From the sequence record PQ433349.1: DNA of 64,000 bases. One strand, 5' to 3'. The translations under genes were made by a program, and so were the position numbers. The notes beneath the pieces were generated by a model, which made no database searches, was not told the DNA's origin, and saw nothing but the letters and a program-made list of their open reading frames with translations. Of this stretch, positions 5,239 to 63,592 are shown in pieces. The stretch's first letter is position 1; each line of letters starts with the position of its first letter. This stretch comes from Escherichia phage vB_Ec-G1.

Positions 5239-5313
5239 GGCCCTGTAGCTCAATGGGAGAGCTGTCGGCTCATAACCGATAGGTAGCTGGATCGAAACCA
5301 GCCAGGGCCACCA
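5239..5313 (+). tRNA. tRNA-Met: tRNA with CAT anticodon (Met/fMet/Ile2 not distinguishable)
   Basis: acceptor GGCCCTG/CAGGGCC, D-stem GCTC/GAGC, anticodon loop CTCATAA, T-arm GCTGG-ATCGAAA-CCAGC, CCA encoded. Confidence 0.75.
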
Positions 5314-5315
5314 AC

Positions 5316-5390
5316 GTCTTTATGGTGTAATGGATAGCACAGGAGTCTTCTAAACTCTTAGTCAAGGTTCGATTCCTTGTAAAGACACCA
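5316..5390 (+). tRNA. tRNA-Arg: tRNA-Arg (anticodon TCT)
   Basis: acceptor GTCTTTA/TAAAGAC, anticodon loop CTTCTAA, T-arm CAAGG-TTCGATT-CCTTG, CCA encoded. Confidence 0.75.
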
Positions 5391-5585
5391 GAACATTTTA
5401 ACATGAATTAGCTCAAGTGATTTGAACCCACTACTGATCATGGTGGCAGAGAATGAGGCAAGTATGTCAGACATTATAAACAAAGGCCACGGTTATATTA
5501 GAAGACATAAATGCTCGAAGAGCACCGTTCGTGGAGAACGGGGGTTGGTGGAGTCACCATTCATGGTAAAATGTTTTAAAAAACT

Positions 5586-5614
5586 ATTGACAACAAACAT
5601 TATTTTATGTTAGA
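5586..5614 (+). promoter_or_regulatory. sigma70-like promoter
   Basis: TTGACA 5586-5591, 17-nt spacer, TTAGAT. Confidence 0.5.
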
Positions 5615-5622
5615 TTATAAAT

Positions 5623-5713
5623 ATGGAAGGGCAAATCGACGTGGCGACGAAAACGGTCTTGAAAACCGCCGAGCTTGAAAGAGCCTTGGGAGTTCGACTC
5701 TCCCTCCTTCCGC
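5623..5713 (+). tRNA. tRNA-Ser: tRNA-Ser (anticodon TGA), long variable arm
   Basis: acceptor GGAAGGG/TCCTTCC, anticodon loop CTTGAAA, variable hairpin GAGC-TTGAAA-GAGC, T-arm GGGAG-TTCGACT-CTCCC, CCA; D-region spacing slightly atypical. Confidence 0.6.
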
Positions 5714-5737
5714 CAGATTGGTAGATTGGTAGATTGG
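5714..5737 (+). repeat. perfect tandem repeat (GATTGGTA)x3 spanning 5' end of tRNA-Ser(GCT)
   Basis: GATTGGTAGATTGGTAGATTGGTG read directly; second copy supplies the tRNA acceptor strand. Confidence 0.8.
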
Positions 5738-5811
5738 TGAAATGGTAGCCACAACAGTTTGCTAAACTGTAGTCGGAAACGGCGTGTAGGTTCGAGTCCT
5801 ACATCTACCGC
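5726..5811 (+). tRNA. tRNA-Ser: tRNA-Ser (anticodon GCT), long variable arm
   Basis: acceptor GGTAGAT/ATCTACC, anticodon stem ACAGT/ACTGT with loop TTGCTAA, T-arm GTAGG-TTCGAGT-CCTAC, CCA. Confidence 0.7.
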
Positions 5812-5941
5812 CAAGTTCTTTTTAATATAGCTTACTTTAATAGAGTAAATTTTCGGCAGATGGCCCCCATCATCTTACCGATACCTCATAGTTAGTGGTG
5901 CGAACACTGGCTATTTTAAAAAGAATTTAAATATTAGTATT

Positions 5942-6029
5942 TAGGTGAGTTAATTCCGTAGGGGTAGCGGGGCAGACTGTAAATCTGTTATCATTGCGAT
6001 TCGGGTGGTTCGACTCCATCACTCACCAC
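5942..6029 (+). tRNA. tRNA-Tyr: tRNA-Tyr (anticodon GTA), long variable arm
   Basis: acceptor GGTGAGT/ACTCACC, anticodon arm GCAGA-CTGTAAA-TCTGT, T-arm GGTGG-TTCGACT-CCATC, CCA; anticodon arm matches E. coli tRNA-Tyr as recalled. Confidence 0.8.
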
Positions 6030-6035
6030 CAAATT

Positions 6036-6121
6036 AAGATGAGTTGGCTGAATGGTTTAAGCAGCGGACTGTTAATCCGTGTTCGAAAGAACAATATAGG
6101 TTCGAATCCTATACTCATCGC
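6036..6121 (+). tRNA. tRNA, probable anticodon GTT (Asn) but with atypical long variable arm
   Basis: perfect acceptor GATGAGT/ACTCATC, T-arm ATAGG-TTCGAAT-CCTAT, CCA; best anticodon arm GCGGA-CTGTTAA-TCCGT; 15-nt extra hairpin GTTC-GAAA-GAAC. Confidence 0.45.
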
Positions 6122-6128
6122 CAGAATT

Positions 6129-6205
6129 ATGGACTTGTAGAGTTAAGGTAAACCCCCAGTCGCCAATAGGCTTCTGGAATTGCAGGTATCGAATCCTGCC
6201 GAGTC
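6129..6205 (+). pseudogene. tRNA-like element, probably non-functional or non-canonical
   Basis: acceptor-like GGACTTG/CGAGTCC and T-arm-like GCAGG-TATCGAAT-CCTGC (8-nt loop) but no convincing anticodon arm and no CCA. Confidence 0.3.
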
Positions 6206-6211
6206 CCAGCA

Positions 6212-6286
6212 TTGCTCCTATAGTATAATGGCTATTACAACGGTTTTGTAATCCGTGGATCTCTGTTCGATTCAGTGTGGGAGCAC
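6212..6286 (+). tRNA. tRNA-Thr: tRNA-Thr (anticodon TGT)
   Basis: acceptor GCTCCTA/TGGGAGC, anticodon stem ACGG/CCGT with loop containing TTTGTAA, T-loop TTCGATT, CCA. Confidence 0.6.
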
Positions 6287-6561
6287 CAACACAACATTAA
6301 GAGCACTGTGATTGATCGTCGTATCCTGTGCACAAGGTCTGCTCGAAAGACAGTGTTCTTAGTATTGTGTTGATCACAAAAAGAGTCACCCGAAACTTGA
6401 CCGGAGTAGGGTTGGATGGGGCAAAATGAGAAGCGGCTCTCCCATCGACAGCAACGAAGAATAATATTTGACTTTGGTTTTGTATTATTTTAAGTTAGCT
6501 TACCGAACGTAGGGCTAGTCACCCAACGGGATACTCGTCACTGTCCCAATCAATAAAAGTC

Positions 6562-6591
6562 TTGACAACAAATAGTAAAATGTAGTATAGT
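6562..6591 (+). promoter_or_regulatory. sigma70-like promoter upstream of tRNA-Gly
   Basis: TTGACA 6562-6567, 18-nt spacer, TATAGT. Confidence 0.55.
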
Positions 6592-6602
6592 AAATATATA
6601 GG

Positions 6603-6676
6603 GCGTTCTTGGTGTAGCGGTAGCATTCCGTCCTTCCAAGTCGGCGGCACGAGTTCGATCCTCGTAGAACGCTCCA
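6603..6676 (+). tRNA. tRNA-Gly: tRNA-Gly (anticodon TCC)
   Basis: acceptor GCGTTCT/AGAACGC, anticodon loop CTTCCAA, T-arm ACGAG-TTCGATC-CTCGT, CCA. Confidence 0.7.
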
Positions 6677-6772
6677 AATTATTTAATAAAGGGTTGCCAG
6701 AAAACTTTCTCTTTTACTCATGGTTTTCTCCTTCTCTCACACTTCTTCTGGTTGCCCTTCATTAAATGATTT

Positions 6773-6850
6773 ATTGGTTTGTAGTGTAGTCCGGTAGCAC
6801 ACGACACTTTGACTGTCGTAGGTTTGGTTCAAATCCAGACAGACCAGCCA
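6773..6850 (+). tRNA. tRNA-Gln: tRNA-Gln (anticodon TTG)
   Basis: acceptor TGGTTTG/CAGACCA (U1-A72), anticodon arm CGACA-CTTTGAC-TGTCG, T-arm TTTGG-TTCAAAT-CCAGA, CCA. Confidence 0.7.
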
Positions 6851-6855
6851 TATAA

Positions 6856-6932
6856 CGGAGTTTAGCTCAGTTTGGTAGAGCATACGCTTTGGGAGCGTAG
6901 GGTCGCAGGTTCGAATCCTGCAATTCCGACCA
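6856..6932 (+). tRNA. tRNA-Pro: tRNA-Pro (anticodon TGG)
   Basis: acceptor CGGAGTT/AATTCCG, D-stem GCTC/GAGC, anticodon arm TACGC-TTTGGGA-GCGTA, T-arm GCAGG-TTCGAAT-CCTGC, CCA. Confidence 0.8.
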
Positions 6933-6938
6933 ATTAAA

Positions 6939-7012
6939 TGTTTCGTAGTTCAATGGTAGAACCCACGACTGATAATCGTGAGACACAAGTTCGATTCTTG
7001 TCGAAACAACCA
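6939..7012 (+). tRNA. tRNA-Ile: tRNA-Ile (anticodon GAT)
   Basis: acceptor TGTTTCG/CGAAACA, D-stem GTTC/GAAC, anticodon arm CACGA-CTGATAA-TCGTG, T-arm ACAAG-TTCGATT-CTTGT, CCA. Confidence 0.8.
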
Positions 7013-7014
7013 GT

Positions 7015-7084
7015 TTCCCGTTAGACTTACAGGATAAGAGTTCCACAGCTTATTGTGATGCTGGTTCGAATCCAGCACGGGATA
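7015..7084 (+). tRNA. tRNA-like gene, anticodon unresolved (possible pseudo-tRNA)
   Basis: T-arm GCTGG-TTCGAAT-CCAGC and acceptor TTCCCGT/ACGGGAT (1:72 mismatch) but only a 4-bp CACA/TGTG stem with 6-nt loop where the anticodon arm should be; no CCA. Confidence 0.35.
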
Positions 7085-7090
7085 CATAAT

Positions 7091-7169
7091 AGCGGGATAG
7101 AGGAGTCTGGTCGTCCTCGCCAGTTTCATATGCTGGAGATCATCGGTTCAAATCCGATTCCCGCCTCCA
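7091..7169 (+). tRNA. tRNA-Met: tRNA with CAT anticodon, second copy (1:72 mismatch, initiator-like feature)
   Basis: acceptor AGCGGGA/TCCCGCC, D-stem GAGG/CCTC, anticodon arm CCAGT-TTCATAT-GCTGG, T-arm ATCGG-TTCAAAT-CCGAT, CCA. Confidence 0.65.
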
Positions 7170-18148: not shown

Positions 18149-19522
18149 ATGGCAACTTTTCGTGAAAAGGTAGCAACCGTAACTTTACTGTATGGTGCTA
18201 CATCAATTCGTGAAACCCAGTTCGATATTCCTCTGATCCTTACAGGTCAGAACGTAACTGGCGAAGCGATTCAATATTACTCTTCTTCCGATGCACTTTT
18301 GGAAGCAGGTTATGGATTAAATGATCCAGCGTATATTATGGCAGTCAAACTGTTTAACGGTTTGTTCCCACCAGATCAAGTCATGGTTGGTAAGCGTGAA
18401 GTTACAAACTTTACTCTAACTCCAATCGTAGAAGATAGTGCAACTTACACAATTACCATCAAAAATGGTACCAAGAAAAAAGAATTTAAATTCATTGCTG
18501 ATGACACTGCAACTGCACAAGAGATTGTAGTTGGTCTGACTGAAATGATCAATGCAGATCTTGTTTATGGCCCACTGTTTACAGTAGCTAACAACGGCGC
18601 TGCAATGACTTTCACTCCAGTAGAAGGTAAGTTTGGTTCTATTGACAGCACAGGTTTCACTCAAGAAACTGTCTATGCTAATGCTATTACGGAAGATATC
18701 GCTGCTCTGCATGATATTGATAGTAGCTGGTTCTGGACCCTTTCAGATTCCCATGAAACAGAAGATGTTCTAGCTTTGGCTGCATGGGTAGAAGAGAATG
18801 ATAAAGTTTACTTCTTCTCTAGCTCTGAACCTGGAATTAAAACGAAAGCAGAAGATAACGTTCTGGAACGACTGAATGACCTCGGTTATAATAACACTTG
18901 CTTTGCTTTGTGGATGACTGATGCAGATTCTGTATTCCCAGAAGCAGCAGTTGTTGGTGCAATCTGTTCTCGTCAACCTGGTTTAACTACCCTTCACGGT
19001 AAAACACTGGTAGGAGTAGAGATCGAGAAACTGGATCAGACTTCGGAAAACAATATTGTTCAACAGAACGGTAACATCTATCGTAAAGAGCATGGAACTC
19101 TGTTCTATCGTGATGGATTGATGGTTAGCGGTTTCTTTGTTGACTATGTTGTTCATGCTTTGTGGTTTAAAGCTCGCACAGAAGAATCACTGTTTACACT
19201 GTTTAAACAACAGTCTATGCTGGGTGGTGGTGTTCGTGCTACTTCAAACGGTCTGGCTTTGATTCGACAAGCTGTTCTGGCTAACCCGATCCAAGTAGGT
19301 ATCCTCAACGGTTCCATCGCTAATGAAGTTGTTACTTCTGAAGAGACTGGTTTGCGTGTCGATCTGAAACCTATTGTTTATATTCCTTCTCGTGCCGATA
19401 TGACCGATGCGCAAATCAATGCTCGTCTGGTTGATGGGATGAAGATTGAATATGTTTACGCTGGCTTCTTCCATTACGTTAAAGTTCAGGTCAACGTCCT
19501 GACTAACCGTACTGCAAACTAA
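18149..19522 (+). CDS. tail sheath protein (putative)
   Basis: 457 aa immediately upstream of a ~160 aa tube-sized gene and chaperone/tape-measure set; strong RBS. Confidence 0.7.
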   Translation: MATFREKVATVTLLYGATSIRETQFDIPLILTGQNVTGEAIQYYSSSDALLEAGYGLNDPAYIMAVKLFNGLFPPDQVMVGKREVTNFTLTPIVEDSATYTITIKNGTKKKEFKFIADDTATAQEIVVGLTEMINADLVYGPLFTVANNGAAMTFTPVEGKFGSIDSTGFTQETVYANAITEDIAALHDIDSSWFWTLSDSHETEDVLALAAWVEENDKVYFFSSSEPGIKTKAEDNVLERLNDLGYNNTCFALWMTDADSVFPEAAVVGAICSRQPGLTTLHGKTLVGVEIEKLDQTSENNIVQQNGNIYRKEHGTLFYRDGLMVSGFFVDYVVHALWFKARTEESLFTLFKQQSMLGGGVRATSNGLALIRQAVLANPIQVGILNGSIANEVVTSEETGLRVDLKPIVYIPSRADMTDAQINARLVDGMKIEYVYAGFFHYVKVQVNVLTNRTAN

Positions 19523-19527
19523 TACGG

Positions 19528-19547
19528 CGGGGGTTAAGCCCCCGTTA
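19528..19547 (+). terminator. GC hairpin (attenuator or partial terminator) between sheath and tube genes
   Basis: CGGGGG-TTAAG-CCCCCG, weak T-tract. Confidence 0.4.
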
Positions 19548-19568
19548 TCAAAATAAAGAGGATCTATA

Positions 19569-20048
19569 ATGGATAAAATGCTTACTGGCGTAATGGCCTA
19601 CGACCCATCTCAAGTTATCCTTTCATTAGGTGGTTGGGAACCGTGGGGTTTTGCGGCTGATACTAAAATCGTTATTGCTAAATCTAACGATATTATCAAC
19701 CCTTATTCAGGGACTGATGGTGACGTTTCACTAGCTTTGAGTCGTAACCGTTTGGGAACACTCACAATGTCTTTGCAACGCACATCTCCAGCTAACGAAG
19801 TACTTGCAACATATGCACAAACAATGTATTCTACTCGTCAAGTAGCATTCAGCGTTTACTTGGAAGACCCACGTGGCTATTACATTAGCACGATTGGATG
19901 GATTCAAAGTCAGCCTGAAGATACTATTGGCGAAATGATTACAGAGAACCAATGGGTTATTGGTCTTAAAGATGCAAGCCTTCTGCGTAATGAAGTTGGT
20001 GTAGGTTTGAGCACCCTTAACTCAATCTCTGCTCTGACAATTCAATAA
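19569..20048 (+). CDS. tail tube protein (putative)
   Basis: 159 aa directly after sheath gene. Confidence 0.65.
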   Translation: MDKMLTGVMAYDPSQVILSLGGWEPWGFAADTKIVIAKSNDIINPYSGTDGDVSLALSRNRLGTLTMSLQRTSPANEVLATYAQTMYSTRQVAFSVYLEDPRGYYISTIGWIQSQPEDTIGEMITENQWVIGLKDASLLRNEVGVGLSTLNSISALTIQ

Positions 20049-20054
20049 TAAATA

Positions 20055-20076
20055 AAGGGCAGAAATGCCCTTTTTA
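20055..20076 (+). terminator. rho-independent terminator
   Basis: AAGGGCA-GAAA-TGCCCTT followed by TTT. Confidence 0.7.
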
Positions 20077-20093
20077 TCATTAGAGAGGAAAAT

Positions 20094-20576
20094 ATGTCAC
20101 AAGAACAAGATAACACAATTCAAAAATATGCTCGACCAGAAGAAGTAGTTGAGATTCCGTTAGATGGAAACAGATCTGTTACTTTCCGTATTATGAAGTG
20201 GAGTCCATCTAAAGTGTTTGACAGGATTCCAGAATTGGGTAGTGTTCTGGTTGTTCCTATGACTATGTATAGCACAGCAACAATGTCAGCAGACGAAGAC
20301 CTTGAGTCACGTATTGCTATGGCACTGATCCAACTTTTTGCGGGTTTGGAAGAAAAGAATTTAACTGTCTTTTTGCGTAAAATTTTAGATGAGGTTTATA
20401 CTCAAGACGGTTATAACGTTGCAGAAAATTTTGATGAATTATTTATGGCTCACCCAGAACTAGTGTTAGATCTTACTGCTAAAGTTCTGGAGGTAAACTA
20501 CGGCCCTTTTTTCAAACGAGGTTTCGGAAAACTGTTCACACAGCTTCAGGCGATGACGAGTTTAGCAGCAAATTAA
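20094..20576 (+). CDS. tail assembly chaperone (gpG-like)
   Basis: 160 aa between tube and tape measure; contains slippery TTTTTTC near 3' end. Confidence 0.6.
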   Translation: MSQEQDNTIQKYARPEEVVEIPLDGNRSVTFRIMKWSPSKVFDRIPELGSVLVVPMTMYSTATMSADEDLESRIAMALIQLFAGLEEKNLTVFLRKILDEVYTQDGYNVAENFDELFMAHPELVLDLTAKVLEVNYGPFFKRGFGKLFTQLQAMTSLAAN

Positions 20577-20842
20577 CACCTGCGATTGAACATGCTATCG
20601 ACACAGCAACGAAAACCCTTACTTTGAAGTGGTATGAGGTTATTCTTTGCAAAGTCGTTAAAGATACCTCGGAAACACTGAAAACATTGGATAACTACGG
20701 TGTAGATTATCTTTTAAAACTATATGAGTATTTAACATACGAAGAGTATGTTGAAGCCATGTATGTTAAAGACACTTCAATAAAGAGAAAACATCAAAAC
20801 CAGACAAATAAAATGTCAGATTTGTTTAAGAAACTTGTTTAA
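20094..20842 (+). CDS. predicted chaperone frameshift fusion product (gpGT-like)
   Basis: chaperone frame to 20512 joined to -1 frame 20513-20842, ending 21 nt before tape measure start. Confidence 0.5.
20507..20513 (+). other. candidate -1 programmed ribosomal frameshift site
   Basis: T TTT TTC in X_XXY_YYZ register of chaperone frame, 21 codons before its stop; -1 frame stays open to 20842. Confidence 0.55.
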
Positions 20843-20862
20843 TCCAACACGAGGAACATACT

Positions 20863-22851
20863 TTGTTAGAAATTAACGCCTCCAAAATTAGTAACGTGGT
20901 TACGTTTAAGGTGGACAAGAACAGTCTCAAGGAAGCAAAAGATGCCGTGTTGAGTGTTCAGAAGTTTGCAAATAAAATGCAACCCACTATGAACATGACC
21001 AAGTTTAGACAACAAATGAAAGAGATTGAGCGTGAACTTAAGAAAGCTCAAACTCAAAGTCAAAAACCTATGCGAGCACCTACTCCCGCTGGAGCGGGTG
21101 CTCCTGTAGGCGGATCTGGCAGACCTAGAACTCCTAAAACCCCGCAAGGAAGAGAAGAAGAAAAAGCTCGTAAAGCTGCTGAACGCGAAGCTAAAGCAGC
21201 AGCACGTAGGGAAGACTTAGGTAATCTTCGTTTGCAGAACTTTAACTATCGAGCAAGAGCATTTAGTAAAGCCAGTCCTGGCGCTATGCAAGAAGCTAGA
21301 GACGTTATGGGTAAAGCTGTAGAGCAATACAAAAAGGGTGAAATAACTCTTCAACGTATGAACCAAGCTCTTGCTCACCAGTTGGATGCTTTACGCAGAT
21401 CTCATCGTGAAAAGAATGCTGAAATAGAAGACGAGGTTCGCGGTCGTCGCCGTATTCGTAGAGAGTTAGAAGCAGAAGCTAAAATGCGTATACGTATGCG
21501 AAATCGTGAACTTAGGGATATAGAACGCAATCGTAAACGTGAATTAGCTCAACAAAGACGTGACCGTGATCGTCGATATGGACAATTAAAAGAAGGTGCA
21601 GCAGGTCTTAATCCACGCATGATTGCATCCTCTTTGATTGGTGCTGGGCTGTTTGCGGGTGGTTCTGTAGTTGGTAATACGTTGATGAATACTAATGAAA
21701 GAATTAAACTTGTAAGCCGTGGTGCTGAAAACGTTCAGACAAACGCCAACGCTATTTTGGCAATGACAGCTTGGGGTGAACAGAACGGTGTAGACTCTGC
21801 AAATATTATTAAGTCAATAGATAATATTAAAGACGTTCGTGAACGTCTTGGTAATACAGTTTTAGCCTCAAAATGGAATGAGAAAGAAGGGAAGTGGAAA
21901 GGCGGCGATAATGGCATAAATGACATTATGAACTTGTTTGGATGGAATCCAGAACAGCTTAAACCTTTACAGAACGATCCTTTAGCTTTTATTCAGGCTA
22001 CTGTTAATGAAGGTGAGCGTCGAGGTATGAACTCTGCTCAAATCGGGCGACTTCTTGAAAACCTTGGTGATGACCTTATGCACTACCAACGTATGTTTAG
22101 TAAAAACGGCGAAGGGTATAATGAAGTATTGAAAATGCTTCAAAGAACAGGTGCAACATTAACTCAAGAACAAATAGATGCTTCTAAAGAGTTTACTCGT
22201 TTTGCTGCAACAGTTCAGCTTGTAGGTCAAGGTATGCAGAACCATTTCTTAGAGGGTTTTGTGAAAGCCTTACCTAAAGATGATTCTTGGTTGGATAACG
22301 TTAAAGTGCTAGATCAGTTTGCCAAAGATTTAGGTGAAGAACTTGGTAAGACAACAGTGCAATTAGGAGGTTTTGCTAAAGAATTGGGAGATGGTTTCGG
22401 ATCTTTTACCAATTGGCTTAAAGAAACATTCCCAGATACATTCGGAGACAACACAGATCCTAATAAATCTATGGCACAAAAAGCATACGAGGCAACGCAA
22501 AGTGGAGACAGCAATCCTGTAGCAGATTGGTTGTACAATTTAACAGGTATTGATACACAAGATATTGGTCGTATGTGGAGAGGAGAACAAACAAGGACAC
22601 GTGCTTTTGGATTTGGTAATCCTCTTGAAGATTTACGTGAATCAGCCTATACACCTAACGTAAGTTTGGCTCGTAATCAACCTGTTGTTGAGAATACGGT
22701 AGCAATACCAAGTGATCTTATCAAAGTTACGATCAGCCCTTCTTCAGAGTTTGGAAATATTCTTGATGCAAGAATTCAAAATAGCGGAAATAGCATTTTC
22801 CAACGTTTGTCTCTTTCAACTCTAAGTGGACAATCTAACACTGGTGGTTAA
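20863..22851 (+). CDS. tail tape measure protein
   Basis: 662 aa, charged coiled-coil-like N-half, Gly-rich TM-like segment SSLIGAGLFAGGSVVG; TTG start after GAGGAA; follows chaperone pair. Confidence 0.75.
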   Translation: MLEINASKISNVVTFKVDKNSLKEAKDAVLSVQKFANKMQPTMNMTKFRQQMKEIERELKKAQTQSQKPMRAPTPAGAGAPVGGSGRPRTPKTPQGREEEKARKAAEREAKAAARREDLGNLRLQNFNYRARAFSKASPGAMQEARDVMGKAVEQYKKGEITLQRMNQALAHQLDALRRSHREKNAEIEDEVRGRRRIRRELEAEAKMRIRMRNRELRDIERNRKRELAQQRRDRDRRYGQLKEGAAGLNPRMIASSLIGAGLFAGGSVVGNTLMNTNERIKLVSRGAENVQTNANAILAMTAWGEQNGVDSANIIKSIDNIKDVRERLGNTVLASKWNEKEGKWKGGDNGINDIMNLFGWNPEQLKPLQNDPLAFIQATVNEGERRGMNSAQIGRLLENLGDDLMHYQRMFSKNGEGYNEVLKMLQRTGATLTQEQIDASKEFTRFAATVQLVGQGMQNHFLEGFVKALPKDDSWLDNVKVLDQFAKDLGEELGKTTVQLGGFAKELGDGFGSFTNWLKETFPDTFGDNTDPNKSMAQKAYEATQSGDSNPVADWLYNLTGIDTQDIGRMWRGEQTRTRAFGFGNPLEDLRESAYTPNVSLARNQPVVENTVAIPSDLIKVTISPSSEFGNILDARIQNSGNSIFQRLSLSTLSGQSNTGG

Positions 22852-22858
22852 TAAAATA

Positions 22859-22880
22859 CCTCGCTTCGGCGGGGTTTTTT
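22859..22880 (+). terminator. rho-independent terminator after tape measure
   Basis: CCTCGC-TTCG-GCGGGG then TTTTTT. Confidence 0.75.
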
Positions 22881-62638: not shown

Positions 62639-63194
62639 GCATACCTCCTCTACCAATTTTGAAGCCCAAATCGTAAGCTTCCTTAGTGATCTTTTGTAAC
62701 TCACTTATAGGAAGTGTTACAAGAGGATCATCTTCTTCAATTTCCATCTTGTCATCTTCTGTTTCAATGAGAGTATTATGCACTTTGTGATAAGGGTTGT
62801 CAACACGTTTAAACTTATTCTTTTCTGTGCTGAAAAAACAGTCTGGATCTTCTTCACCATCACCCCAACCTTGGTTAGGATCTCCGTCAGATTGTTCTGT
62901 AGGGATTTCACCTGTAAAGTACTCTTCCAGCACCATAGCAATACCGTCCCTTGGATTTGAGGAATGCATTAAATCACAAACCTTACCCCAATCCATAGCC
63001 CATTCGAACCGTTCACGAATGCCATTTTCATCCTCCTTCCCAGAGAAAACACAACCATAACTATCATAGTTGCCATACATCTCTTCAATAACAACACCGT
63101 CCTTCAAAAGAAAGAGGTAGCAAGGTGATCCGTCGAAAGAAGTAGAAAGGGCAGCTTTGCCCGATTCTTTGCACAAAAAGCTAAAACAACCCAT
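62631..63194 (-). CDS. hypothetical acidic protein
   Basis: 187 aa. Confidence 0.5.
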   Translation of the reverse strand: MGCFSFLCKESGKAALSTSFDGSPCYLFLLKDGVVIEEMYGNYDSYGCVFSGKEDENGIRERFEWAMDWGKVCDLMHSSNPRDGIAMVLEEYFTGEIPTEQSDGDPNQGWGDGEEDPDCFFSTEKNKFKRVDNPYHKVHNTLIETEDDKMEIEEDDPLVTLPISELQKITKEAYDLGFKIGRGGMRV

Positions 63195-63592
63195 TACAAA
63201 CCCTCCTTCAGATTATCAAGAGCTACAGTGGTTTCACAAAATTCTCCATAAGCTTTATGATGTTCCAGAAAAGCTTCGGGTCCACCCCAGTCATTATCTT
63301 GTGTATTCCAGCCATCAATAAAAGCATCTTCAATGATTGTGATCAGTTCCTGTCGAGTCAACGTAATGGTATCAGGTTTCTGCGTAGTTTCCACACGGAA
63401 CCCTGGTTCTTCATAAAAACCTTTAGTTACAATGGATTCTAACTCTTCTGCATCACAGAGGAAGTAGCCACAAAGATAACACCAACCGTCATCATCTTTC
63501 ATTACTTCATAAACTTCACCACTTGCTAACTTGGTGAAAAGAGTAGGGTCTGTTACTGTAAGTTTTAAAAGAATACCTGTTGGATTATACAT
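63194..63592 (-). CDS. hypothetical protein
   Basis: 132 aa. Confidence 0.5.
   Translation of the reverse strand: MYNPTGILLKLTVTDPTLFTKLASGEVYEVMKDDDGWCYLCGYFLCDAEELESIVTKGFYEEPGFRVETTQKPDTITLTRQELITIIEDAFIDGWNTQDNDWGGPEAFLEHHKAYGEFCETTVALDNLKEGL

What the first reader, a model, noticed from the sequence alone, without database searches (positions are those of the whole stretch)
20094..20842. Canonical -1 frameshift site producing an extended tail chaperone
Between the tube and tape-measure genes, the 160 aa chaperone-like ORF carries the heptamer T_TTT_TTC (20507-20513) in exact X_XXY_YYZ register, 21 codons before its stop. The -1 frame is open from that point to 20842, ending 21 nt before the tape-measure start. 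This is the conserved G/GT arrangement of tailed phages and predicts a fusion protein of about 250 aa. I did not look for a downstream stimulatory structure.
Basis: partly seen in the sequence, partly recalled or inferred. Interest (0 to 1): 0.6.

Follow-up and report, generated by a model that had tools for sequence, protein, structure and literature searches.

The report
Tail chaperone frameshift site, real but ordinary
This E. coli phage makes a longer version of its tail assembly chaperone when the ribosome slips back one base at a run of Ts, a standard trick of tailed phages that the public records inspected for this phage group do not annotate.

Summary
The window is a Phapecoctavirus (phAPEC8-like myovirus of E. 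coli). Between the tube gene and the tape-measure gene lies a 160-aa tail assembly chaperone (Pfam Phage_TAC_15). T_TTT_TTC (20507-20513) sits in X_XXY_YYZ register, and the -1 frame is open to 20842, giving a 249-aa fusion.

Comparative evidence is decisive:
- The heptamer is invariant, in register and at the homologous codons, in all 29 distinct sequence contexts recovered, down to about 25-30% chaperone identity. Neighbouring codons vary synonymously, and the preceding residue varies (P/C/S) but its codon always ends in T.
- Substitutions fall on third positions of frame 0 before the site. After the chaperone's stop they fall on third positions of the -1 frame. This includes 20577-20623, upstream of the only possible start (TTG 20624), which has no ribosome-binding site.

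I found no conserved downstream RNA structure. An upstream GGAGG, 13 nt away, is a possible but non-universal stimulator.

None of about 21 GenBank records inspected annotates the fusion. A 2025 paper infers the homologous frameshift in sister phage families.

Verdict: a well-supported, unannotated member of the known G/GT class. Low novelty.

The parts
19569..20048 (+). Tail tube gene (159 aa), directly upstream of the chaperone
   Evidence: phrog_280 E = 3e-35. Pfam KPP10_Orf10 scores 24.4 bits, just under the cut-off of 25. Annotated as putative tail tube in several relatives. The sheath gene (phrog_205) lies at 18149-19522.
20054..20073 (+). Terminator-like hairpin followed by a T-run, between the tube and chaperone genes
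   Evidence: The same feature is annotated as a rho-independent terminator in phage ASO2A. It plausibly lowers transcription of the chaperone and tape-measure genes relative to sheath and tube (inference).
20083..20089 (+). Ribosome-binding site GAGAGGA for the chaperone
   Evidence: Read from the sequence.
20094..20576 (+). Chaperone ORF 'G' (160 aa), the product of normal frame-0 translation
20489..20493 (+). Internal SD-like GGAGG, 13 nt upstream of the heptamer; possible dnaX-type stimulator
   Evidence: Read from the sequence. A GGAG, GAGG or GAGGTG element sits at the same place in most relatives but is absent in some Vequintavirinae. The Glu codon used is GAG, the minor one (27% in this window). 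Its function is inferred, not shown.
20504..20513 (+). Slippery run C_CCT_TTT_TTC: the heptamer T_TTT_TTC (20507-20513) overlapped by a second in-register heptamer C_CCT_TTT (20504-20510)
   Evidence: Register verified. T_TTT_TTC is invariant in 29 distinct contexts. CCCTTTTTTC occurs once in the window. H_HH.U_UU.Y motifs are among the most efficient in E. coli (PMC4066793).
20514..20576 (+). Dual-coded overlap: frame 0 reads KRGFGKLFTQLQAMTSLAAN*, frame -1 reads (Q)TRFRKTVHTASGDDEFSSK
   Evidence: GGTTT is invariant in all 29 contexts; it encodes G-F/L in frame 0 and R-F in frame -1, and RFR follows the site in 27 of 29. KPP10 also has it.
20513..20842 (+). -1 frame 'T' segment: 109 codons plus the TAA at 20840-20842, reached only by the shift
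   Evidence: The -1 frame is open from 20483 to 20842. phrog_16039 E = 5e-44 covers its C-terminal 72 aa. Substitutions fall on -1-frame third positions in 20577-20623 (20/68/28) and 20624-20839 (75/261/155). The first possible start, TTG 20624, has no SD.
20851..20855 (+). Ribosome-binding site GAGGA for the tape-measure gene
   Evidence: Read from the sequence, 7 nt before TTG 20863.
20863..22851 (+). Tape-measure protein gene (662 aa, TTG start)
   Evidence: phrog_16051, 1249 bits, full length. Phage 05F01 has an ATG at the homologous position.
22858..22875 (+). Terminator-like hairpin closing the chaperone and tape-measure unit
   Evidence: annotated as a terminator in ASO2A.

Best explanation
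This is the tail assembly chaperone pair of a phAPEC8-like myovirus, expressed by programmed -1 ribosomal frameshifting.

Most ribosomes translate 20094-20576 and release the 160-aa chaperone. A minority slip back one base when the P- and A-site tRNAs sit on CCU-UUU or UUU-UUC within C_CCU_UUU_UUC (20504-20513). Both tRNAs re-pair perfectly in the -1 frame. Translation then continues to the TAA at 20840-20842 and yields a 249-aa fusion: the chaperone fold (residues 1-140), a variable linker, and a conserved helical C-terminal domain.

By analogy with lambda gpG/gpGT, the shared N-terminal part would coat the tape-measure protein encoded immediately downstream, and the extra domain would recruit tube subunits. 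Neither product is expected in the virion.

Shown here: the anatomy, the family membership, the conservation of the site, and coding constraint in the -1 frame.

Inferred: that slippage is ribosomal, the product ratio (probably a few per cent), and the binding roles of the two parts.
For: 1. Anatomy and register.
3. T_TTT_TTC is in register at the homologous NY-x-x-FF codons in 7 Stephanstirmvirinae and 7 Vequintavirinae GenBank loci and in all 39 IMG/VR loci, 29 distinct contexts in total. Adjacent Asn, Tyr and Gly codons vary synonymously. The preceding codon changes its amino acid (CCT, TGT or AGT) but keeps the final T.
4. The -1 ORF always runs 250-280 nt past the chaperone's stop. In the annotated GenBank loci it ends 8 to about 200 nt before the annotated tape-measure start.
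5. Substitution periodicity is 216/105/487 (frame 0) before the site. It is 20/68/28 and 75/261/155 (frame -1) after the chaperone's stop, including the 47 nt upstream of the only possible start codon.
6. That start has no SD.
7. The AF2 fold ends at residue 141, so the shift sits at the domain boundary.
8. U_UU.U_UU.C and C_CC.U_UU.U belong to the most efficient motif class in E. coli (PMC4066793).
9. The homologous locus in Vandenendeviridae and Andersonviridae has been argued to be a -1 frameshift (PMC12846349). KPP10's chaperone is in the same Pfam family and has the same downstream -1-frame TRFR motif.
Against: - There is no experimental evidence for the fusion protein in this phage group. 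The rV5 proteomics paper does not mention it, which is expected if chaperones are absent from virions.
- No stimulatory RNA structure was found: the fold z-score is -0.05 and no helix covaries. Efficiency may therefore be low.
- The upstream SD-like element is not universal.
- FF is also an invariant protein motif, so part of the conservation is at the protein level. This does not explain the invariant codon choice or the preceding T.
- One of the two search patterns used for the IMG/VR scan required FF, though not particular codons.
- The sequences compared are phylogenetically related, so counts of contexts are not independent events.
Confidence: 0.9

Rival explanations
1. The same fusion is made by transcriptional slippage. 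RNA polymerase adds one extra U while copying the T6 run, so a subset of mRNAs carries the downstream domain in frame and the ribosome does nothing unusual.
For: The site contains a homopolymer run, T6. The protein would be identical (GPFFQTRF...), so conservation of the run and of the -1 ORF does not separate the two mechanisms. A paper I could not read, cited in PMC12846349, argues for a non-translational mechanism in the chaperones of T4-like phages.
Against: From general knowledge of the field, efficient slippage by bacterial RNA polymerase usually needs runs of about 8-9 or more A/T; here the run is 6. What is conserved is the exact codon register and the 3' C of T_TTT_TTC. That matters for tRNA re-pairing but not for polymerase slippage. 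KPP10 has only T5 at the homologous site.
Confidence: 0.05
2. There is no recoding. The downstream ORF is a separate small gene, translated from TTG 20624 or a non-canonical start, as most GenBank records annotate it (72-85 aa hypothetical protein).
For: Gene callers and many records annotate a separate ORF. A TTG exists at 20624.
Against: - There is no SD upstream of TTG 20624.
- Annotated starts differ between relatives and are not conserved.
- There is no ATG, GTG or TTG in the -1 frame between 20483 and 20624. Even so, 20577-20623 shows -1-frame coding periodicity, and a -1-frame motif (RF in all 29 contexts, RFR in 27) begins right after the heptamer.
- Some records annotate nothing there at all.
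Confidence: 0.03
3. The heptamer and the open -1 frame are a coincidence or an evolutionary relic with no function.
For: An in-register heptamer somewhere in a 94-nt overlap would arise by chance about 12% of the time.
Against: The site is invariant and the -1 ORF uninterrupted in every relative examined, down to about 25% chaperone identity. Coding periodicity is present in the -1 frame.
Confidence: 0.02

Closest known systems
Lambda gpG/gpGT and the conserved tail-chaperone frameshift of tailed phages (Levin et al. 1993; Xu, Hendrix & Duda 2004; summarised in PMC5009743)
   Same: - Two overlapping ORFs lie between the major tail or tube gene and the tape-measure gene.
- A -1 shift at a heptamer near the end of the first ORF produces a fusion.
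- No dedicated start exists for the second ORF.
- A stimulatory structure does not seem to be required.
   Different: - The slippery sequence differs: T_TTT_TTC inside a 10-nt run here, against G_GGA_AAG in lambda (from general knowledge).
- This is a contractile-tail phage of about 150 kb.
- The product ratio and binding partners have not been measured.
TAC-N/TAC-NC frameshift proposed for Vandenendeviridae (Pakpunavirus Adele) and Andersonviridae (Moogle-like phages), PMC12846349
   Same: - The module is homologous. KPP10's chaperone hits the same Pfam family (E = 9e-25).
- The shift position is the same, at the end of the chaperone fold.
- The -1 ORF runs into the tape-measure gene (KPP10's ends 11 nt inside the annotated tape-measure ORF).
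- The -1-frame TRFR motif and GGTTTCG block follow the site in both.
- Public records likewise annotate the second part as a hypothetical protein.
   Different: - That paper analysed Vandenendeviridae and Andersonviridae loci, not Stephanstirmvirinae.
- Its invariant motif is GTTTTT. In KPP10 this is G_GTT_TTT, only a U_UUU tetramer-type site.
- Here the G is absent and the site is a full heptamer, doubled into C_CCT_TTT_TTC.
P2 E/E+E' chaperone pair of a contractile-tail phage (recalled from Xu et al. 2004; not re-checked here)
   Same: A myovirus with a -1 shift on a T-rich heptamer between the tube and tape-measure genes.
   Different: The protein family is unrelated by sequence, since no P2-like hits appeared in any search. 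I did not verify the heptamer or its register.
E. coli dnaX -1 frameshift (upstream SD-like element plus downstream hairpin; general knowledge, with PMC4066793)
   Same: An SD-like GGAGG lies 13 nt upstream of the slippery site, within the 10-14 nt range reported to stimulate -1 shifting.
   Different: No downstream hairpin was found. The SD-like element is not conserved in all relatives. The heptamer and the biological purpose differ.

Membership tests
G/GT-type tail assembly chaperone with programmed -1 frameshift | Located between the major tail or tube gene and the tape-measure gene | tested here: met
   Gene order is sheath 18149-19522, tube 19569-20048, chaperone 20094-20576, tape measure 20863-22851.
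G/GT-type tail assembly chaperone with programmed -1 frameshift | A second ORF overlaps the 3' end of the first in the -1 frame and lacks its own conserved start and RBS | tested here: met
   The -1 frame is open from 20483 to 20842. The first possible start, TTG 20624, has no SD. Starts annotated in relatives are not conserved.
G/GT-type tail assembly chaperone with programmed -1 frameshift | An in-register slippery heptamer X_XXY_YYZ lies within the overlap | tested here: met
   T_TTT_TTC at 20507-20513 and C_CCT_TTT at 20504-20510.
G/GT-type tail assembly chaperone with programmed -1 frameshift | Site and frame arrangement are conserved in divergent relatives, with coding constraint in the -1 frame | tested here: met
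   All 29 distinct contexts carry the heptamer. The -1 ORF is uninterrupted in all loci. Substitution periodicity switches frame.
G/GT-type tail assembly chaperone with programmed -1 frameshift | The first ORF belongs to a tail assembly chaperone family or fold | tested here: met
G/GT-type tail assembly chaperone with programmed -1 frameshift | A fusion protein is actually produced at a low, fixed ratio and is needed for tail assembly | not testable with these tools
   This needs a reporter assay, mass spectrometry and genetics. No published proteomic evidence was found.
dnaX-like stimulated -1 frameshift | Upstream SD-like element at 10-14 nt | tested here: inconclusive
   GGAGG lies 13 nt upstream here, and GAGG or GGAG variants occur in most relatives. 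The element is absent in several Vequintavirinae and in KP13-16.
dnaX-like stimulated -1 frameshift | Downstream stimulatory hairpin or pseudoknot | tested here: not met
   The fold of 20514-20600 has z = -0.05. RNAalifold on two sets of relatives gives no supported helix. There is no Rfam match.
Programmed transcriptional slippage | A long homopolymer run (about 8-9 or more A/T for bacterial RNA polymerase; general knowledge) | tested here: not met
   The run is T6 here and T5 in KPP10.

The most novel reading that the evidence does not exclude
The site could be more than a plain lambda-like low-efficiency shift. The tandem 10-nt run C_CCU_UUU_UUC gives two consecutive chances to slip. It may act together with the upstream GGAGG (13 nt) and the invariant GGTTT(CG) block 8-14 nt downstream as a structure-free stimulatory context. 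That context could set an unusually high or tunable ratio of long to short chaperone in this phage lineage. The related phages would then show an evolutionary series from a tetramer site (KPP10), to a heptamer (rV5-like phages), to a decamer (phAPEC8- and phi92-like phages). The downstream block would then act at the RNA level rather than only through dual coding.
Probability: 0.1. Interest if true: 0.4.

Novelty: new member of a known kind. Interest (0 to 1): 0.2.

Why it matters
The main value is for annotation.

- None of about 21 GenBank records inspected from this and sister phage groups annotates the 249-aa fusion. The downstream part is either called a separate hypothetical protein or left as a gap.
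- The exact fusion sequence is absent from a collection of about 15 billion proteins.
- These phages (phAPEC8-, phi92- and rV5-like) are widely used in phage therapy and biocontrol work, so correct gene models have practical use.

The invariance of one heptamer across two subfamilies gives a clean natural data set for how chaperone frameshift sites evolve, from tetramer to heptamer to tandem heptamer. It adds nothing new about mechanism.

Tried and rejected
- **Downstream stimulatory structure.** A single-sequence fold of 20514-20600 has z = -0.05. RNAalifold on 8 Stephanstirmvirinae and 6 Vequintavirinae sequences gives no covariation, and its best helix simply pairs the T-run with downstream purines. 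A weak 6-bp hairpin at 20518-20547 is kept in phi92 but broken in the Klebsiella phages, judged by eye. Rejected.
- **Rfam.** Only tRNAs matched.
- **Other slip sites.** No other in-register heptamer lies in the overlap, and the +1 frame is closed.
- **Second candidate at 63203 (minus strand).** This is an ordinary TAATG overlap with its own SD.
- **Structure of the fusion.** The -1 part alone, without an alignment, gave pLDDT 47.7, helical but unusable, so I did not search with it.
- **Sequence search of the fusion against solved structures.** No hits.
- **Literature.** Searches for a described frameshift in Phapecoctavirus, phi92 or rV5 found nothing specific. Vladimirov et al. 2022 on the chaperones of T4-like phages is not held.
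- **Joined CDS.** About 21 records inspected, none joined.

Full report
**Where the window comes from.** The region 19500-21500 is 99.3-99.7% identical to many Phapecoctavirus genomes. These are phAPEC8-like E. coli myoviruses of about 150 kb in the subfamily Stephanstirmvirinae.

**Gene order on the + strand**:
- Sheath, 18149-19522 (phrog_205, E = 2.9e-100).
- Tube, 19569-20048 (phrog_280).
- A 160-aa ORF, 20094-20576.
- A tape-measure gene, 20863-22851 (phrog_16051, full length).

The 160-aa ORF is a tail assembly chaperone. Pfam PF21822 Phage_TAC_15 scores E = 1.3e-23, 84.3 bits against a cut-off of 22, and phrog_3840 scores E = 2.8e-55. Terminator-like hairpins at 20054-20073 and 22858-22875 bracket the chaperone and tape-measure unit. 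Both are annotated as terminators in phage ASO2A.

**Checking the observation.**
- Frame-0 codons around the site are TAC GGC CCT TTT TTC AAA, so T(20507)_TTT_TTC(20513) is in X_XXY_YYZ register.
- The -1 frame is open from 20483 to the TAA at 20840-20842. The +1 frame is closed.
- Shifting gives ...NYGPFF|QTRFRKTV..., 140 + 109 = 249 aa, ending 20 nt before the TTG start of the tape-measure gene.
- Two things were missed. C_CCT_TTT (20504-20510) is also in register, so the site is a 10-nt tandem slippery run, and either slip gives the same protein. A GGAGG sits 13 nt upstream at 20489-20493.

**Chance.** In-register XXXYYYZ heptamers occur 80 times in about 18,600 codons of a crude set of ORFs of at least 120 aa, taken from both strands without curation. 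One falling within the 94-nt overlap would happen by chance roughly 12% of the time. The heptamer alone is therefore weak evidence. Only this site and one other couple a heptamer with a -1 extension of more than 100 codons. The other, at 63203 on the minus strand, is a plain TAATG gene overlap with its own SD.

**Comparative evidence.** I fetched the locus from these sources:
- Seven more distant Stephanstirmvirinae and related phages, 72-75% nucleotide identity for six of them and a weaker partial match for 05F01. They are phi92, PsgM04F, phiWec190, phiWec181, KP2025, phi1_175008 and 05F01.
- Six Vequintavirinae plus the divergent Stephanstirmvirinae phage KP13-16, with 25-38% chaperone identity. 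They are rV5, Hena1, Ro1, SSE121, CB7, ChuuTotoro and KP13-16.
- 39 IMG/VR contigs.

All of them carry T_TTT_TTC in register at the homologous NY-x-x-FF codons. In all of them the -1 frame runs 250-280 nt beyond the chaperone's stop. In the annotated GenBank loci it ends 8 to about 200 nt before the annotated tape-measure start.

Across the 29 distinct nucleotide contexts:
- The neighbouring Asn, Tyr and Gly codons vary synonymously (AAC/AAT, TAC/TAT, GGC/GGA/GGT).
- The two Phe codons are always TTT TTC.
- The preceding codon changes its amino acid (CCT Pro, TGT Cys, AGT Ser) but always ends in T. Selection on the protein alone cannot explain that.
- In this window's own ORFs, only about 8% of Phe-Phe pairs are written T_TTT_TTC.

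One caveat applies. One of the two patterns used in the IMG/VR scan required FF, though not particular codons, and the sequences are related rather than independent.

**Which frame is translated.** I aligned the window with the seven closer relatives and counted differences by frame-0 codon position.

| Segment | Position 1 | Position 2 | Position 3 | Third positions of |
|---|---|---|---|---|
| Before the site (20094-20506) | 216 | 105 | 487 | frame 0 |
| Dual-coded overlap (20514-20573) | 39 | 30 | 71 | frame 0 |
| 20577-20623 | 20 | 68 | 28 | frame -1 |
| 20624-20839 | 75 | 261 | 155 | frame -1 |

The segment 20577-20623 lies upstream of TTG 20624. That TTG is the first ATG, GTG or TTG in the -1 frame after the stop at 20480-20482, and it has no SD. 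The -1 frame is therefore read from a point where no initiation is possible, which rules out the separate small gene of the public annotations.

A -1-frame motif also begins right after the heptamer, with R-F in all 29 contexts and RFR in 27 (QTRFRK, HERRFRR, RQERFRD). The AF2 model of the chaperone (pLDDT 74, pTM 0.68) is folded from residue 9 to 141 and of low confidence from 142 to 160. The shift at residue 140 thus sits exactly at the end of the domain.

**Fold.**
- Foldseek against the PDB gave nothing significant.
- BFVD hits are phage tail and tape-measure chaperones, including Moogle's.

**Stimulators.** No downstream structure was found. The fold of 20514-20600 has z = -0.05, RNAalifold on two sets of relatives shows no covarying helix, and Rfam finds only tRNAs. 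From general knowledge, lambda G/GT also works without a stimulatory structure.

The upstream GGAGG lies at the spacing at which an SD-like element stimulates the dnaX shift. It uses the minor Glu codon GAG (27% in this window). GGAG, GAGG or GAGGTG recur at this place in most relatives but not in all, for example Ro1, CB7, ChuuTotoro and KP13-16. I treat it as a possible, lineage-variable enhancer.

Both heptamers fall in the H_HH.U_UU.Y class, listed among the most efficient -1 motifs in E. coli (PMC4066793).

**Mechanism.**
- Shown: chaperone identity, site, register, conservation, and -1-frame coding constraint.
- Inferred: a minority of ribosomes slip -1 on C_CCU_UUU_UUC and make a 249-aa fusion.
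- Inferred by analogy with lambda (PMC5009743): the shared N-terminal part binds the tape-measure protein, the C-terminal domain recruits tube subunits, and neither product ends up in the virion.

Transcriptional slippage on T6 would give the same protein and cannot be excluded by sequence alone. It is unlikely because the run is short (T5 in KPP10), and because what is conserved is the codon register and the 3' C.

**What is already known.**
- None of about 21 GenBank records inspected has a joined CDS. The second part is either a 72-85 aa hypothetical protein or unannotated.
- The exact 249-aa fusion is absent from the 15-billion-protein collection, while the 160-aa and 72-aa pieces are present.
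- A homology search with the fusion returns only proteins of about 160 aa covering roughly 60% of it.
- Papers on rV5, and searches on Phapecoctavirus and phi92, do not mention the frameshift.
- A December 2025 paper on Pseudomonas phage Adele argues in silico for a conserved -1 frameshift at an invariant GTTTTT motif in the chaperone locus of Vandenendeviridae and Andersonviridae. It notes that these families are related to Vequintavirinae and Stephanstirmvirinae (PMC12846349).
- I confirmed that KPP10's chaperone is in the same Pfam family (E = 9e-25). It has G_GTT_TTT at the homologous position, followed by the same GGTTTCG block and -1-frame TRFR motif. The site here is therefore the homologue of a published prediction, upgraded from a tetramer-type site to a tandem heptamer.

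**Verdict.** It is a textbook mechanism, and a homologous prediction exists for sister families. I rate it a new, unannotated member of a known kind, with low interest. Its value lies in annotation and in a tidy comparative series of slip sites.

Noticed in passing
window 5239-7169 (+): A cluster of 10 tRNA genes by ARAGORN: Met, Arg-UCU, Ser-GCU, Asn, Thr-UGU, Gly-UCC, Gln-UUG, Pro-UGG, Ile-GAU and Met. Rfam finds an eleventh tRNA-like match at 5944-6028 (39 bits) that ARAGORN did not call. There is a tRNA-Pro but no tRNA-Phe, so the phage supplies only one of the two tRNA species that would decode the C_CCU_UUU part of the slip site.
   Followed up: partly
window 20863 (+); L001 2990, L003 2978, L010 about 2035: The tape-measure gene most likely starts at TTG 20863 (GAGGA SD 7 nt upstream). 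Phage 05F01 has an ATG at the homologous position. Several GenBank and RefSeq records start the gene about 115-127 nt further downstream at an ATG, which truncates the N-terminus.
   Followed up: partly
window 20054-20073 and 22858-22875 (+): Terminator-like hairpins directly after the tube gene and after the tape-measure gene. No strong promoter match lies between them, which suggests the chaperone and tape-measure unit is expressed by read-through at a lower level than sheath and tube.
   Followed up: partly
window 63191-63203 (-): An in-register GGGTTTG heptamer at the very end of a 132-aa ORF, with a 188-codon open -1 frame. It is an ordinary TAATG stop/start overlap preceded by GGAGG, not a frameshift candidate.
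   Followed up: yes
window 20522-20526 and homologous positions in L004-L060: GGTTT, usually GGTTTCG, is invariant 8-14 nt downstream of the slip site in all 29 contexts and in KPP10. It encodes G-F/L in frame 0 and R-F in frame -1. Dual-coding constraint probably explains it, but I did not exclude an RNA-level role.
   Followed up: partly
hit lists (records not fetched as loci): Several GenBank records labelled 'Campylobacter phage' (for example B15 and A150, host C. jejuni), and a 'Pseudomonas phage PsgM04F', carry this locus. B15 is near-identical to E. coli Phapecoctavirus, and A150 and PsgM04F match at about 73-75%. The host labels look doubtful.
   Followed up: no
L020 301-783 (Escherichia phage JohannJBalmer, MZ501084.1): In this record the chaperone homologue is annotated as a second 'tail tube protein', probably a mislabel.
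   Followed up: no
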